Virus record (IMG/VR): IMGVR_UViG_2778261252_000001
Direction: 5' to 3' (one strand)
DNA from: a virus
Taxonomy: Duplodnaviria > Heunggongvirae > Uroviricota > Caudoviricetes
DNA length: 4,026 nucleotides
Of this stretch, positions 1 to 4,026 are shown one piece after another; within the stretch, counting starts at the first letter, position 1, and every line of letters starts with the position of its first letter. The notes under the pieces were generated by a model. The model was not told the origin of the DNA. It saw nothing but the letters and a program-made list of their open reading frames with translations, and searched no databases. Both the position numbers and the translations under genes were made by a program.

Positions 1-1231
<1,231 letters not shown>

Positions 1232-1242
1232 ACATCCCCCTT

Positions 1243-1596
1243 TCAGCGGCGACGGTTAACGGCAGGCGGTACGCCCCGTCCAAGCCAGAGATGACAACTT
1301 CCGCCATCATCCGGCGAAACCCGATCTACCCAGAAATTTTCCTCACCGATGGTCAGCGTGTCTCCACGCCGCAGCTGCCGCACCTCATCAGTCCGGACAA
1401 ACAGGGACGGGCTGGAGCCTTCAACGCGCACGCCCTGTCCGGCATAGCTGATATTTTCAGGGTCATCAAAAACACCACGTATCACAGCACCGGACTGCTC
1501 ACCGGATGTCATGGTGGCTGACGTTCCCATGTACCCGCGTATCGTTTCATCGGCGCGGGCAATGGCAGCATCGAACAGGTTATCGAAATCAGCCAC
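1243..1596 (-). CDS. FII: Head-tail joining (head completion) protein FII, 117 aa
   Basis: ORF 1243..1596 (-), MADFDNLFDAAIARADETIRGYMGTSA..., length identical to lambda gpFII. Start codon here is GTG (1594-1596), preceded by GGGAGG. 11-nt gap after the FI stop. Confidence 0.92.
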   Translation of the reverse strand: MADFDNLFDAAIARADETIRGYMGTSATMTSGEQSGAVIRGVFDDPENISYAGQGVRVEGSSPSLFVRTDEVRQLRRGDTLTIGEENFWVDRVSPDDGGSCHLWLGRGVPPAVNRRR

Positions 1597-1607: not shown

Positions 1608-2006
1608 TTATTGCATTCTGGCCAGGCCGCGCGCTGTCATTTCAGCTGACACACCGGCAGAGACACGAAACGCCGTTCCCGGCAGCACAAATGCCACAGG
1701 TTCATCCCGCGTGGCGTGAAGTGCATCAGTATGCAGCGTCACCAGTGCCACGACCGTGACCAGTTCAGACGTATCCAGAATCACGGTATCCGGCTGCGCT
1801 GATCCCACCTCATTTTCATGTCCGGTCAGCACATTTTCCCGGCTGAGAGGGGTGTCCTGACCGGCAGTTTCATCCGTGTCATCAAGCTCCTCTTCCAGCT
1901 CTGCCACACGGAGCGCCAGTTCTTCTTTCGTCCCCGTCAGGCTGACATCACGGTTCAGTTGTTCACCCAGCGAGCGGAGACGGGCAATCAGTTCATCTTT
2001 CGTCAT
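1608..2006 (-). CDS. FI: DNA-packaging / head assembly protein FI, 132 aa
   Basis: Track ORF 1608..2045 contains an internal ATG at 2004-2006 (MTKDELIARLRSLGEQLNRDVSLTGTKEELALRVAELEEELDDTDETAGQ...) preceded by a strong SD GGAGGAG (2010-2016). That gives 132 aa, the lambda gpFI length, and a 41-nt E-FI gap as in lambda. The upstream in-frame ATG at 2043-2045 sits inside a hairpin stem and has no SD. Confidence 0.88.
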   Translation of the reverse strand: MTKDELIARLRSLGEQLNRDVSLTGTKEELALRVAELEEELDDTDETAGQDTPLSRENVLTGHENEVGSAQPDTVILDTSELVTVVALVTLHTDALHATRDEPVAFVLPGTAFRVSAGVSAEMTARGLARMQ

Positions 2007-2027: not shown

Positions 2028-2045
2028 ATGGCCCCGAAGGGCCAT
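2028..2045 (-). other. Stable stem-loop with UUCG tetraloop (AUGGCCC-UUCG-GGGCCAU) 2 nt after the E stop, followed by a U/C-rich tract and the FI SD
   Basis: Plus strand 2028-2045 atggccc cgaa gggccat is a perfect 7-bp inverted repeat. On the minus-strand RNA the loop is UUCG. Downstream on the RNA: UUUUCUCUCUG, then GGAGGAG, then the FI AUG. Confidence 0.45.
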
Positions 2046-2047
2046 GA

Positions 2048-3073
2048 TTACGCCAGTTGAACGGCCACGAACTCATCAGGATCAGCCAGCAGCATCAGCG
2101 GTGCTGACTGAATCATGGTGAACTCTCGCGCCGGATCGCCGGATGTCTTCCAGTTTTTCGGATAACGGGGAGACGCATTAATACCCTCACTCAATGCGTC
2201 CGCATCCTGAATGCAACCATAGGTGCGCAGACCGCGTGCCTGAGTGTTCCCCAGCACCATCGTGTTGTCCGGCAGGAAGTTCTTTTTGACGCCGTTTTCC
2301 ACGTACTGTCCGGAATACACGACGATGGCCACATCGCCATACATTCCCTTATAAGACACCGCTTTGCCCAGGTCTTTTACCGCTGTCTCCAGCTCGGAAT
2401 GAGAGCCGCGACGGGTATCCAGCTTCTCCTTGACGGCCTTGAAGGAACGGAACAGCGCCCAGCCTTTCGGATCAAACACGATGATATTCACCACACCGCT
2501 GGCGTTCAGCGCGTAGGCTTCGATATCGTCGGTCGGGTCATACGTGGACTTGTCACGCTTGCTCCACTCTGTGCCGCCGGACTGCGTGATGTTATTCGCC
2601 GCACTGCGGCCCATATCCACCTCAACCGGATCGAAGGCTTCACCGGTCATGGTGTATTTGCCCTTAAGCACGGCAGAAACTGCCTGCATCTCTTCGACCT
2701 GGGCAATCGCCAGATTTTCATCCAGCATATTCTGCCGAATAATACGGCGACGACGGTAAGCCGGGTCAGCCAGGTTCTGCGGATCTTCATCCGGCAGGCG
2801 ACGCAGGGTCATCTGCGGATTCACCTCATGCTTGGGTTTGACATAACCCGGCGTAAATTCAGAGGTGGAGCCGCCACGGGATCGGATAACCTCACCGGAA
2901 ACAATCGGCGAAACGTACAGCGCCATGTTTACCAGTCCCGGAATTTGTGAGAGATAGACTTTTTCCGTGGTGAAAGGATAGGTTTCACGGAAAAACAGGC
3001 GCAGAAACAGCGGATCGAACTTAAAGTGATGCTGGGTCGATGCCAGTAATTCTGCAGTTGTATATACAGACAT
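2048..3073 (-). CDS. E: Major capsid protein E (HK97-fold major head protein), 341 aa
   Basis: ORF 2048..3073 (-), MSVYTTAELLASTQHHFKFDPLFLRLFFRETYPFTTEKVYLSQIPGLVNMALYVSPIVSGEVIRSRGG...DPDEFVAVQLA. Same 341-aa length as lambda gpE and near-identical over most of its length by recollection. 55-nt gap to D as in lambda. Confidence 0.97.
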   Translation of the reverse strand: MSVYTTAELLASTQHHFKFDPLFLRLFFRETYPFTTEKVYLSQIPGLVNMALYVSPIVSGEVIRSRGGSTSEFTPGYVKPKHEVNPQMTLRRLPDEDPQNLADPAYRRRRIIRQNMLDENLAIAQVEEMQAVSAVLKGKYTMTGEAFDPVEVDMGRSAANNITQSGGTEWSKRDKSTYDPTDDIEAYALNASGVVNIIVFDPKGWALFRSFKAVKEKLDTRRGSHSELETAVKDLGKAVSYKGMYGDVAIVVYSGQYVENGVKKNFLPDNTMVLGNTQARGLRTYGCIQDADALSEGINASPRYPKNWKTSGDPAREFTMIQSAPLMLLADPDEFVAVQLA

Positions 3074-3086
3074 AAATTATTTCCAT

Positions 3087-3111
3087 AAAAAAAGCCGCAC
3101 AGGCGGCCTTT
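3087..3111 (-). terminator. Intrinsic-terminator-like hairpin in the D-E intergenic region: AAAG-GCCGC-CUGU-GCGGC followed by U7 on the transcribed strand
   Basis: Plus strand 3087-3111 is aaaaaaaGCCGCacagGCGGCcttt. On the minus strand this is a 5-bp GC stem, extendable to about 9 bp, with a 4-nt loop followed directly by seven U, about 14 nt upstream of the E start codon. Confidence 0.4.
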
Positions 3112-3128: not shown

Positions 3129-3461
3129 TTAAACGATGCTGATTGCCGTTCCGGCAAACGCGGTCCGTTTTTTAGTCTCGTCGCTGGCAGCCTCCGGCCA
3201 GAGCACATCCTCATAACGAAACGAGCCGGACTTGTAGAACGTCAGTGTGGTGCTGGTCTGGTCAGCAGCAACCGCCAGAATGCCAACGGCTGCACCGTCG
3301 GTGGTGCCATCCCACACAACCAGCTTACGGGTAGTGCCATCCAGCATCAGCGGGGTCATTGCAGGCGTTTTCGCACTCAATCCGCCAGGCGCAATTGCTG
3401 TATGAGCCGGATCACTGTTACCCAGCGGCTGGTAATGGTTAAACTCTTCTTTTGTCGCCAT
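3129..3461 (-). CDS. D: Head decoration protein D, 110 aa
   Basis: ORF 3129..3461 (-), [110 protein letters not shown]. Same length as lambda gpD and highly similar. ATG 3459-3461 preceded by GAGG; 9 nt after the upstream stop. Confidence 0.95.
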
Positions 3462-3470
3462 AACTGCCTC

Positions 3471-3878
3471 TTATACCGGTAAAGCTTCAGGTGTATTAAG
3501 TAATTCTTTATTGGTATCAGATGCCAGGTTACCTGCAGCCAGCGGTGCCGGTGTACCCTGCATCAGACGATCCAGCGCAGTGTCACTGCGCGCCTGTGCA
3601 CTCTGTGGTGCTGCAGCCAGAATGCGGCGGGCCGTTTCCACGGTCATACCGGGGGTTTCTGCCAGCACGCGGGCCTGTTCTTCGCGTCCGTGAGCCTCCT
3701 CACAGTTGAGGATCCCCATAATGCGGCTGTTTTCTGCCGCAACCGCTGCGGTGATCTGCGCGTTCACGTCCGGCTGCGCCGCGCTGGCGTTTTCGCCCTC
3801 CGTCGCTGGCACCACGTCAGTAACGTCAGCCTGCGAAGCAGTGGCTGAAACAGTTGTTGATTGAGTCTCTTTGGTCAT
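3471..3878 (-). CDS. Nu3: Scaffolding protein (Nu3-like; equivalent to the C-terminal region shared by lambda gpC and gpNu3). Most likely start is ATG 3876-3878 (135 aa); the open frame extends to GTG 3957-3959 (162 aa)
   Basis: Track ORF 3471..3959 (-). The ATG at 3876-3878 (MTKETQSTTVSATASQADV...) is preceded by AGGAGG (3883-3888). Ala/Gln-rich, low-complexity, acidic sequence typical of scaffold proteins; ...ENSRIMGILNCEEAHGREEQARVLAETPGMTV... matches my recollection of the lambda C/Nu3 C-terminus. In-frame TGA at 3969-3971 limits the frame upstream. Start assignment is uncertain. Confidence 0.78.
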   Translation of the reverse strand: MTKETQSTTVSATASQADVTDVVPATEGENASAAQPDVNAQITAAVAAENSRIMGILNCEEAHGREEQARVLAETPGMTVETARRILAAAPQSAQARSDTALDRLMQGTPAPLAAGNLASDTNKELLNTPEALPV

Positions 3879-3948
3879 TCGCCCTCCTGAGAGACGGGAT
3901 TTACGTGCATCCAGTGCATCACGCATGACGGTGATCGCATCGGTGCTG

Positions 3949-4026
3949 TTAACCAACACGGGCAGACTTCACCACATTCACCTCGCGGATGTAGTCGCTG
4001 CCCATCGCATTCATGATGGCCCGCTG
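3949..4026 (-). CDS. 3' end (last 25 codons) of an upstream head gene entering from the right edge; possibly the prohead protease (C-like), identity not established
   Basis: The only frame open across 3952-4026 on the minus strand reads ...QRAIMNAMGSDYIREVNVVKSARVG* and ends at TAA 3949-3951. It is a different frame from the scaffold ORF and overlaps the GTG at 3957-3959. Too short to classify. Confidence 0.4.
   Translation of the reverse strand, partial: QRAIMNAMGSDYIREVNVVKSARVG

What the first reader, a model, noticed from the sequence alone, without database searches (positions are those of the whole stretch)
3876..4026. Protease/scaffold region is not the lambda nested C/Nu3 arrangement
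In lambda the scaffold Nu3 is translated in-frame from within the protease gene C, so C is one continuous frame to the shared stop. Here the scaffold frame (stop at 3471) has in-frame stops upstream at 3969-3971 (TGA) and beyond, while a different frame is open from the window edge and ends at TAA 3949-3951 (...AIMNAMGSDYIREVNVVKSARVG*). The overlap GTGTTGGTTAA (GTG 3957-3959, TAA 3949-3951) looks like a translational-coupling junction, and a strong AGGAGG-ATG start lies at 3876-3878. So either this relative has separate protease and scaffold genes (a mosaic recombination joint inside the C-equivalent), or C carries a frameshift and is a pseudogene. The short upstream peptide does not show the S49 protease signature I recall for this part of lambda C.
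Basis: partly seen in the sequence, partly recalled or inferred. Interest (0 to 1): 0.45.

Follow-up and report, generated by a model that had tools for sequence, protein, structure and literature searches.

The report
Deletion scar in a defective prophage
The odd two-frame junction is a deletion scar: a decayed lambda-like prophage of E. coli lost about 4.3 kb, which joined the start of the terminase gene A to the tail end of the protease/scaffold gene C, and this is ordinary prophage decay already flagged as pseudogenes in RefSeq.

Summary
The scaffold frame is closed upstream by TGA 3969-3971, another frame runs in from the window edge to TAA 3949-3951, and an AGGAGG-ATG lies at 3876-3878.

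The upstream frame is neither a protease nor a frameshifted C. It is codons 57-81 of the terminase large subunit gene A (100% nt identity to phage Perceval A; the 81-aa A' product is identical to lambda gpA residues 1-81). Homology to lambda C begins only at window 3953, which is C codon 284. The two segments meet at a 4-bp microhomology, GTTA (3950-3953).

About 4315 bp (lambda coordinates, not a multiple of 3) are missing: the rest of A, W, portal B, the whole S49 protease domain of C and the annotated Nu3 start. The TAA stop and the "coupling-like" GTG are by-products of the joint. The AGGAGG-ATG is Met309 of gpC, with identical context in lambda.

The window is from a DLP12-type cryptic prophage next to ompT in E. 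coli VE-V10-F, and PGAP already marks both fragments as pseudogenes. A second deletion (Z'-'J, about 9.3 kb) lies at about 687-698. Both joints recur, base for base, in five other assemblies, so they are real and inherited. Interest is low.

The parts
3949..4026 (-). 3' end of the A' pseudogene fragment. This is the terminase large subunit, codons 57-81, plus the stop TAA at 3949-3951. The whole fragment is 81 codons and starts outside the window, just after Nu1.
   Evidence: The stretch is 77/77 nt identical to phage Perceval A nt 878-954 and 97.4% identical to lambda A nt 879-955. The peptide QRAIMNAMGSDYIREVNVVKSARVG equals lambda gpA residues 57-81, and the source ORF equals gpA 1-81 exactly. 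Pfam GpA_ATPase matches residues 47-81 at 23 bits, below the 25.6 cut-off because only the first 39 of 247 profile positions remain. PGAP annotates it as 'phage terminase large subunit family protein, incomplete, missing C-terminus'.
3950..3953 (-). The deletion joint. GTTA is a 4-bp microhomology shared by A (…CGTGTTGGTTA|TTCC) and C (…GAACTTGTTA|ACAGC).
   Evidence: BLAST segments overlap at query positions 74-77. Base-by-base comparison with lambda, Perceval and the ATCC 8739 prophage shows the same thing. The missing stretch is 4315 bp in both lambda and Perceval coordinates, and 4315 mod 3 = 1.
3471..3953 (-). 'C/'Nu3 remnant. It holds the codons equivalent to lambda gpC 284-439, which is the C-terminal scaffold part only, plus the stop at 3471-3473.
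   Evidence: The stretch from window 3953 to 679, which begins with this remnant, is 94.7% nt identical to lambda from nt 5267 and 96.9% to Perceval. LVNSTDAITVM... maps to gpC residue 283 and Nu3 residue 45. It has no Pfam hit, whereas lambda gpC carries Peptidase_S49 at residues 150-297. PGAP annotates it as 'S49 family peptidase, incomplete, missing N-terminus'.
3957..3959 (-). GTG that opens the mechanical 162-aa ORF. It is an accidental start candidate lying inside A-derived sequence.
   Evidence: The GTG is formed across A codons CGT GTT (R79 V80) and is present in all intact A genes compared. No gene with this 162-aa product is on record in any assembly.
3876..3888 (-). AGGAGG (3883-3888), a 4-nt spacer and ATG (3876-3878). 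This ATG is Met309 of gpC and Met71 of the GenBank Nu3. It is an internal site that also exists in lambda.
   Evidence: The 36-nt context is identical in lambda at nt 5315-5350. Gene callers start the remnant here, giving a 135-aa product recorded in 57 blocks of the collection.
3129..3461 (-). Intact D (head decoration protein, 110 aa).
   Evidence: ORF. PGAP and Pfam HDPD support it.
2048..3073 (-). Intact E (major capsid protein, 341 aa).
   Evidence: ORF. PGAP and Pfam Phage_cap_E support it.
1608..2006 (-). FI (DNA-packaging protein, 132 aa as annotated).
   Evidence: Supported.
1243..1596 (-). FII (head-tail joining protein, 117 aa).
   Evidence: Supported.
692..1231 (-). Z', which is codons 1-179 of 192. 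The TAA stop at 692-694 is supplied by the second deletion joint.
   Evidence: The product is identical to lambda gpZ residues 1-179, then stops.
687..698 (-). Second deletion joint, Z'-'J (GGGCTA|ACCGCC). About 9306 bp of lambda coordinates are lost: the 3' end of Z, then U, V, G, T, H, M, L, K, I and about two thirds of J.
   Evidence: BLAST segments run from lambda 8531 to 17819. The sequence display is and the coordinates.
1..695 (-). 'J remnant (tail tip / host-specificity protein, from about codon 772). It runs off the window edge.
   Evidence: Window 66-697 is 91.5% identical to lambda 17819-18450. PGAP annotates it as 'phage tail tip domain-containing protein, missing N-terminus'.

Best explanation
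Window 3950-3953 is the scar of a roughly 4.3-kb illegitimate (microhomology-mediated) deletion in a lambda-type, DLP12-like cryptic prophage of E. coli.

The deletion joined codon 81 of the terminase large subunit gene A to codon 284 of the protease/scaffold gene C, across a shared GTTA. The lost length is 3n+1, so the A frame runs straight into the out-of-frame TAA of C's GTTAAC. That gives an 81-codon A' stub. The C frame is left without its own start, without the S49 protease domain and without the annotated Nu3 initiation site.

The rest of A (ATPase and nuclease), W and the portal gene B are gone. A second deletion (Z'-'J) removes most tail genes, and the antiterminator (Q-type) gene upstream is also truncated. 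The element therefore cannot build or fill heads.

The GTG/TAA overlap and the two-frame appearance are passive by-products of the joint, not a gene-expression device.

Shown directly: the identity of both flanks, the position of the joint, the frame arithmetic, the loss of domains, and inheritance across assemblies. Inferred: the mechanism of deletion (replication slippage or end-joining at microhomology), and that the fragments have no function.
For: 1. Flank identities. Window 4026-3950 (minus strand) is A nt 878-954, and window 3953 onward is C from nt 5267.
2. Protein level. The source A' ORF equals lambda gpA residues 1-81 exactly. The remnant matches gpC from residue 283/284 to the end.
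3. Frame arithmetic. The deletion is 4315 bp and 4315 mod 3 = 1. The intact A gene reads GGT TAT here, and the window reads GGT TAA.
4. Domain loss. Lambda gpC has Peptidase_S49 at residues 150-297, and the remnant has no Pfam hit. A' keeps only profile positions 3-39 of the 247-position GpA_ATPase model.
5. Source. The window is 100% identical to NZ_AP027971.1. There Nu1 lies immediately upstream, and PGAP labels the two pieces as incomplete pseudogenes.
6. Intact relatives have Nu1-A-W-B-C-D-E in the expected order.
7. The joint is real and inherited. The identical 38-nt joint, and 99.97-100% identity over all 4026 bp, occur in five further NCBI assemblies.
8. Further decay in the same element. 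There is a Z'-'J deletion in the window, and truncated antitermination and tail-fibre-assembly genes.
9. Locus. The element is syntenic with K-12 DLP12, from nohD-aaaD' through tfa, ybcY and tfaX to ompT. K-12 has a different, independent break in A at lambda nt 1018.
Against: Nothing found contradicts the deletion reading. Several limits apply:
- No reads were available, so the base calls were not checked directly.
- The joint occurs in only 1 of 5,426 complete E. coli genomes. It was absent from the metagenome and GTDB-representative scans.
- D, E, FI and FII remain intact ORFs, so the decay is recent or partial.
- Expression and function of the fragments were not tested. The promoter scan found no sigma-70-like site on the coding strand anywhere in the window, but that scan is weak evidence.
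Confidence: 0.96

Rival explanations
1. This is a lambda relative in which protease and scaffold are separate, translationally coupled genes, produced by a mosaic joint with a different protease family.
For: Two frames meet with a GTG...TAA overlap of the type seen at coupled gene pairs.
Against: The upstream ORF is gpA residues 1-81 and follows Nu1 directly. No S49 or other protease domain is present on either side. Portal and W are missing between Nu1 and D. The GTG is an out-of-frame triplet found in all intact A genes. No gene caller or assembly records the 162-aa GTG product.
Confidence: 0.005
2. C is full length but carries a 1-2 nt frameshift or a sequencing error near 3945-3975.
For: The frame does change at that position. 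Such indel artefacts do exist elsewhere. Draft assembly L010 has GTTAAC read as GTAAC at this very site and a split C of 283 + 135 aa.
Against: In the window there is no C-derived sequence at all upstream of 3953. The 73 bases beyond it are 100% terminase A. The joint is identical in six independent assemblies, including a complete genome.
Confidence: 0.005
3. The joint is an assembly chimera, that is, a mis-join between two lambdoid prophages of the same genome.
For: The source genome holds a second place matching the query (places_in_record = 2). Lambdoid repeats are a known source of mis-assembly (own knowledge).
Against: A mis-join across repeats would occur within homologous sequence. It would not join A nt 955 to C nt 5267 through 4 bp. 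The same joint, together with the same Z'-'J joint, is present in five other assemblies from different projects.
Confidence: 0.01
4. The scar is real, but the retained pieces are kept by selection rather than being inert. The pieces are Nu1 plus an 81-aa gpA N-terminal stub, with or without the 135-aa Nu3 C-terminal fragment behind its strong Shine-Dalgarno site. One possible role is as a decoy that titrates the small terminase or scaffold partners of superinfecting lambdoid phages.
For: - Nu1 plus an A stub of 81-102 codons is retained in at least three differently deleted DLP12-type elements: the window type, L007, and K-12 nohD-aaaD'.
- The gpA N-terminus is listed as the Nu1-binding part of A (Table 2 of PMC3224144).
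- The joint-bearing module is found behind two different lysis modules.
- The AGGAGG-ATG is intact.
Against: There is no evidence of expression. No coding-strand promoter-like site was found in the window, and the antiterminator gene of the element is truncated. The window-type and L007-type A breakpoints are at the same nucleotide, so they probably share ancestry and are not independent. Retention is equally expected from neutral, recent decay.
Confidence: 0.03

Closest known systems
E. coli K-12 cryptic prophage DLP12 (nohD-aaaD'-tfaD ... ompT)
   Same: It occupies the same chromosomal neighbourhood next to ompT. It has the same Nu1 homologue followed by a 5' fragment of the terminase large subunit gene annotated as a pseudogene. 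Identity is 97.9% over nohD and the A stub, and 96.5% over the tfa/ybcY/tfaX region.
   Different: K-12's A fragment runs to lambda nt 1018 and is fused to the tail-fibre-assembly region at about 22119, so all head and tail genes are lost. The window's element breaks A at nt 955 and still keeps 'C, D, E, FI, FII, Z', 'J, lom and stf. The two deletions are independent, and this element is less decayed.
Lambda genes C / Nu3 (nested S49 prohead protease and scaffold)
   Same: The remnant is about 93% nt identical to lambda C/Nu3 over its last ~156 codons and ends just before D, as in lambda.
   Different: It lacks C codons 1-283, which include the S49 domain at residues 150-297. It also lacks the annotated Nu3 start at lambda nt 5132. 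It is not a nested gene pair but a 5'-truncated fragment.
Lambda gene A (terminase large subunit, gpA)
   Same: The first 81 codons are identical in protein sequence to lambda gpA and lie directly after Nu1.
   Different: It lacks residues 82-641, which is almost all of the ATPase domain and all of the nuclease domain. From my own recollection of the terminase literature, the break falls inside the deviant Walker A segment KSARVGYS (residues 76-83). This was not checked against a paper here.
Intact lambda-type (pro)phages: phage Perceval and the ATCC 8739 prophage
   Same: They are the closest intact references for both flanks. Perceval is 100% identical over the A stub and 96.9% from C to Z.
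   Different: They carry the full Nu1-A-W-B-C-D-E-...-J series.

Membership tests
Lambda-type nested C/Nu3 protease-scaffold gene | One continuous ORF of about 439 codons with an N-terminal Peptidase_S49 domain | tested here: not met
   The C frame is closed by TGA 3969-3971. Only codons 284-439 are present, and the remnant has no Pfam hit, whereas lambda gpC has S49 at residues 150-297.
Lambda-type nested C/Nu3 protease-scaffold gene | An internal in-frame start for Nu3 (lambda nt 5132) that shares the stop of C | tested here: not met
   Homology begins at lambda nt 5267, 135 nt downstream of the annotated Nu3 start. Only Nu3 residues 46-201 remain.
Lambda-type nested C/Nu3 protease-scaffold gene | Position between portal gene B and decoration gene D | tested here: not met
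   D follows the remnant, but the upstream neighbours are A' and Nu1. B and W are absent.
Terminase large subunit gpA (PF05876 ATPase + PF20454 nuclease) | A complete ATPase domain and endonuclease domain | tested here: not met
   The stub has 81 residues. GpA_ATPase scores 23 bits, below the 25.6 cut-off, and covers profile positions 3-39 of 247. There is no nuclease hit. Lambda gpA scores 172 and 251 bits for the two domains.
Terminase large subunit gpA (PF05876 ATPase + PF20454 nuclease) | Sequence identity to gpA and a position directly after Nu1, overlapping its end | tested here: met
   The product equals gpA residues 1-81 exactly. In locus L001, Nu1 is 11313-11858 and A' is 11833-12075.
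DLP12-type cryptic (defective) lambdoid prophage | Chromosomal position beside ompT, with the series lysis genes, bor, nohD, A stub, tfa, ybcY and tfaX | tested here: met
   The region is collinear with K-12 DLP12 at 92-98% identity. The left end and attachment site were not examined.
DLP12-type cryptic (defective) lambdoid prophage | Loss of genes essential for virion production | tested here: met
   A, W, B and C are deleted or truncated. Z is truncated, U to I are absent and J is truncated. The antitermination gene is truncated. Inability to form plaques was inferred, not tested.
Translationally coupled gene pair (stop/start overlap) | The overlap is conserved in relatives as a gene boundary, with a ribosome-binding site upstream of the restart codon | tested here: not met
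   The overlap exists only in genomes that carry the deletion. In intact relatives the GTG lies inside A and the TAA lies inside C, 4.3 kb apart. No gene with the GTG-started 162-aa product is on record in the assembly collection.

The most novel reading that the evidence does not exclude
The Nu1 + gpA(1-81) stub is repeatedly retained in DLP12-type remnants. It might be a domesticated decoy that interferes with terminase or procapsid assembly of superinfecting lambda-type phages, possibly together with the 135-aa Nu3 C-terminal fragment behind its strong ribosome-binding site. On that reading the scar marks the boundary of a selected module, not neutral decay.
Probability: 0.03. Interest if true: 0.55.

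Novelty: already known. Interest (0 to 1): 0.08.

Why it matters
It matters little for biology. Deletion-riddled lambdoid remnants such as DLP12 are a textbook feature of E. coli genomes, and RefSeq already labels both fragments here as incomplete pseudogenes.

The practical value is as a caution. When a window edge cuts a gene, an unfamiliar upstream frame may belong to a gene normally several kilobases away. The stop/start overlap at a deletion joint can then mimic translational coupling.

The case also gives a clean, dated-by-descent example of microhomology-mediated prophage decay. There are two joints, both shared by six assemblies, and a possible precursor joint in a seventh.

Tried and rejected
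- **1-2 nt indel.** I aligned the junction to lambda C to look for one. There is none. Identity simply ends at GTTAAC.
- **The junction elsewhere.** An exact 38-nt scan of metagenome contigs and of the GTDB representative genomes found nothing. The 162-aa GTG-started product is on record nowhere.
- **L007-type joint.** I searched for it in complete E. coli genomes and found none. Its 13-nt filler matches no C allele compared, so the two-step origin stays a conjecture.
- **True Nu3 start in the literature.** The key papers (Medina et al. 2010 and a review of phage lambda that I looked for) are not held. The papers that are held only list C and Nu3.
- **Promoter scan.** No sigma-70-like site was found on the coding strand anywhere in the window, and overall counts are at the level of shuffled sequence.
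- **Heavy searches not run.** I did not run structure prediction or large protein searches. Both flanks are more than 92% identical at the DNA level to annotated lambda genes, so those searches could not change the answer.

Full report
**1. The observation**

All genes in the window read on the minus strand, in the lambda head-gene order.
- One frame is open from base 4026 and reads QRAIMNAMGSDYIREVNVVKSARVG*, with TAA at 3949-3951.
- The frame that ends at the stop 3471-3473, just before D, reads ...MW*SLPVLVNSTDAITVMRDALDARKSRLSGGRMTKETQ..., with TGA at 3969-3971.
- GTG 3957-3959 opens a mechanical ORF of 162 aa.
- ATG 3876-3878 follows AGGAGG (3883-3888) after four bases.

C is 4418-5737 and nu3 is 5132-5737, in the same frame with the same stop.

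**2. What the two frames are**

A megablast of window 3400-4026 against phage genomes matched lambda and its relatives only from query base 74 onward. That base is window 3953, which corresponds to lambda nt 5267 inside C.

The outermost bases were then searched on their own. They matched the terminase large subunit gene A at nt 878-954. Identity is 100% to phages Perceval, 2B8 and several Stx1a phages, 98.7% to phage 434 and related records, and 97.4% to lambda itself.

Direct alignments show the window following A through ...GCCCGTGTTGGTTA and then following C from GTTAACAGCACC.... The two parents share only GTTA (window 3950-3953).

At the protein level:
- The complete upstream ORF in the source genome equals lambda gpA residues 1-81 exactly.
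- The downstream frame matches gpC from residue 283/284 to the end, which is Nu3 from residue 45/46.

**3. The frame arithmetic explains every odd feature**

The missing stretch is 4315 bp in both lambda and Perceval coordinates, and 4315 mod 3 = 1.
- Intact A reads CGT GTT GGT TAT TCC here.
- After the deletion it reads CGT GTT GGT TAA. The stop is the out-of-frame TAA of C's own GTTAAC, brought into the A frame by the joint.
- The GTG is the out-of-frame triplet across A codons R79/V80. It exists in every intact A gene compared.

The 'coupling-like' GTGTTGGTTAA is therefore an accident of the joint.

The AGGAGG-N4-ATG is Met309 of gpC and Met71 of the GenBank Nu3. Its 36-nt context is identical in lambda, so it is not a peculiarity of this relative.

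**4. What was lost**

The deletion removed A codons 82-641, W, the portal gene B, C codons 1-283 and the annotated Nu3 start. Pfam confirms the domain loss.
- Lambda gpC carries Peptidase_S49 at residues 150-297. The remnant has no hit.
- Lambda gpA carries GpA_ATPase (residues 47-285) and GpA_nuclease (residues 322-600). The 81-aa stub reaches only profile positions 3-39 of the ATPase model, at 23 bits against a 25.6-bit cut-off.

From my own memory of the terminase literature, not checked here, the break lies within the deviant Walker A segment KSARVGYS.

**5. Source and context**

The window is 100% identical to E. coli VE-V10-F (NZ_AP027971.1, Hanoi), at locus L001 12001-16026. In that genome:
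- PGAP annotates 'phage terminase large subunit family protein, incomplete, missing C-terminus', overlapping by a few bases 'S49 family peptidase, incomplete, missing N-terminus'. Nu1 lies directly upstream and D, E, FI, FII follow downstream.
- The same element has a truncated antitermination gene and truncated tail-fibre-assembly genes.
- It also has a second large deletion inside the window. Z stops after codon 179 of 192 and is fused to J at about codon 772 (GGGCTA|ACCGCC, window 698-687). About 9306 bp are lost, covering U through I.
- The element lies beside ompT and is collinear with the right arm of K-12's cryptic prophage DLP12 at 92-98% identity, from nohD-aaaD' through tfa, ybcY and tfaX to ompT.

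K-12's A pseudogene aaaD' breaks at lambda nt 1018 and is fused to the tfa region at about nt 22119. That is an independent and larger deletion. Intact relatives (lambda, Perceval, the ATCC 8739 prophage) have the complete Nu1-A-W-B-C-D-E series.

**6. Real or artefact?**

Among 5,426 complete E. coli genomes, only the source carries the joint. Exact scans of metagenome contigs and GTDB representatives found nothing.

However, the 135-aa product that gene callers start at ATG 3876-3878 is on record in 57 blocks of the assembly collection. Five further NCBI assemblies contain the identical 38-nt A'-'C joint and the identical Z'-'J joint. They are GCA_025139585.1, GCA_958431265.1, GCA_958303125.1, GCA_014981205.1 and GCA_958313195.1. 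Identity over all 4026 bases is 99.97-100%.

These carriers place the module behind two different lysis regions. One is like the source and one is like K-12 DLP12. The joint is therefore a genuine, inherited structure. It is not a base-call error or an assembly chimera.

**7. Rivals**
- 'Separate protease and scaffold genes' fails because the upstream ORF is terminase, not protease, and because portal and W are missing.
- 'Frameshifted C' fails because no C sequence exists upstream of codon 284. A true indel-type split of C does occur in a poor-quality draft (L010, GTTAAC read as GTAAC), and it looks quite different.
- 'Assembly chimera' fails on the six concordant assemblies.
- The only reading with any novelty is that the Nu1 + A-stub module, or the 135-aa Nu3 fragment, is retained by selection, for example as a decoy against superinfecting lambdoid phages. 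The support is thin. Similar stubs are retained in the window type, L007 and K-12. The gpA N-terminus is listed as binding Nu1 in Table 2 of PMC3224144. Against it, there is no sign of a coding-strand promoter, the antiterminator is truncated, and the window and L007 breakpoints probably share ancestry. I give this about 3%.

**8. Mechanism**

The joint has 4 bp of microhomology and no mobile-element sequence. That is the signature expected of illegitimate recombination, either replication slippage or microhomology-mediated end joining. This is an inference from established knowledge, not shown here.

Assembly L007 breaks A at the very same nucleotide. It then carries 13 nt of unmatched filler and resumes in C at lambda nt ~5206. 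The window's joint could have arisen from such a precursor by a further 74-nt deletion between GTTA and GT(T/C)A. This is a conjecture, since no complete genome carries the L007 joint.

**9. Verdict**

The feature is an ordinary deletion scar in a DLP12-type cryptic prophage and is already annotated as pseudogene fragments in RefSeq. Novelty: already known. Interest: low.

Noticed in passing
window 687-698 (joint); Z' 692-1231; 'J 1-695, minus strand: There is a second deletion joint in the same window. Z is cut after codon 179 and fused to J at about codon 772 (GGGCTA|ACCGCC). About 9.3 kb of lambda coordinates are lost (U, V, G, T, H, M, L, K, I and most of J). As at the first joint, the fusion supplies an immediate TAA stop.
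   Followed up: yes
L007 5830-5960 (GCA_019841025.1): Another DLP12-type remnant breaks gene A at the identical nucleotide (lambda 955, ...GGTTA). It then has a 13-nt filler, CGGAAAGGCGATG, and resumes in C 61 nt further upstream (lambda ~5206). It has also lost D and E. It may be a precursor form of the window's joint, with a 74-nt GTTA..GTYA slippage deletion giving the window's version. No complete E. coli genome has this joint.
   Followed up: partly
L009, L011-L014 versus L008; L011 versus L006: The head module with both joints is 99.8-100% identical across six assemblies, yet it sits behind two different lysis/upstream modules. One is the source type (TonB_C, DUF1327). The other is the K-12 DLP12 type (nmpC-like porin, ybcV, ybcW). 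Shared sequence begins about 240 bp upstream of Nu1. This implies recombination between DLP12 variants after the deletions.
   Followed up: partly
window 3876-3888 (minus strand); lambda nt 5315-5350: The strongest Shine-Dalgarno-plus-ATG in the C/Nu3 region (AGGAGG-GCGA-ATG, Met309 of gpC) is identical in lambda. Curated records disagree on the Nu3 start. Lambda and 434 use nt 5132 (201 aa), and the 434 records carry a note 'real Nu3 start ...' that the tool truncates. Lambda imm21 uses an earlier start (233 aa). I could not settle from the literature held here whether Met309 is ever used.
   Followed up: partly
L006 7355-7663 (K-12 aaaD') versus L001 11833-12075: K-12 DLP12's terminase-A pseudogene aaaD' ends at lambda nt 1018 and is fused to the tfa region (lambda ~22119). 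This is an independent deletion from the one in the window, at the same chromosomal locus. Nu1 plus a short A stub survives in both.
   Followed up: yes
L010 4640-4700 (GCA_000355335.2): An otherwise intact lambda-type prophage has C split into 283 + 135 aa by a 1-nt loss (GTTAAC read as GTAAC) at the same hexamer as the window's joint. V, H and FII are also split or shortened. This pattern is typical of indel errors in a draft assembly, and it explains part of the database count for the 135-aa product.
   Followed up: partly
window ~3086-3107 and 2028-2045, minus strand: A GC-rich hairpin followed by T7 lies between D and E (GCCGCCTGTGCGGC-TTTTTTT). It is at the position where the phage 434 record annotates a rho-independent terminator. 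A second hairpin (ATGGCCCTTCGGGGCCAT) lies immediately after the stop of E (stop 2048-2050), upstream of the annotated FI start. Both are inherited lambda-type features, not specific to this element.
   Followed up: no
L001 3294-3962 and 9259-9552: The source prophage has a truncated antitermination (Q-type) gene, so late-operon expression is unlikely. It also carries iss (a bor homologue, the serum-survival lipoprotein), a cargo gene that may explain why the remnant is retained.
   Followed up: no
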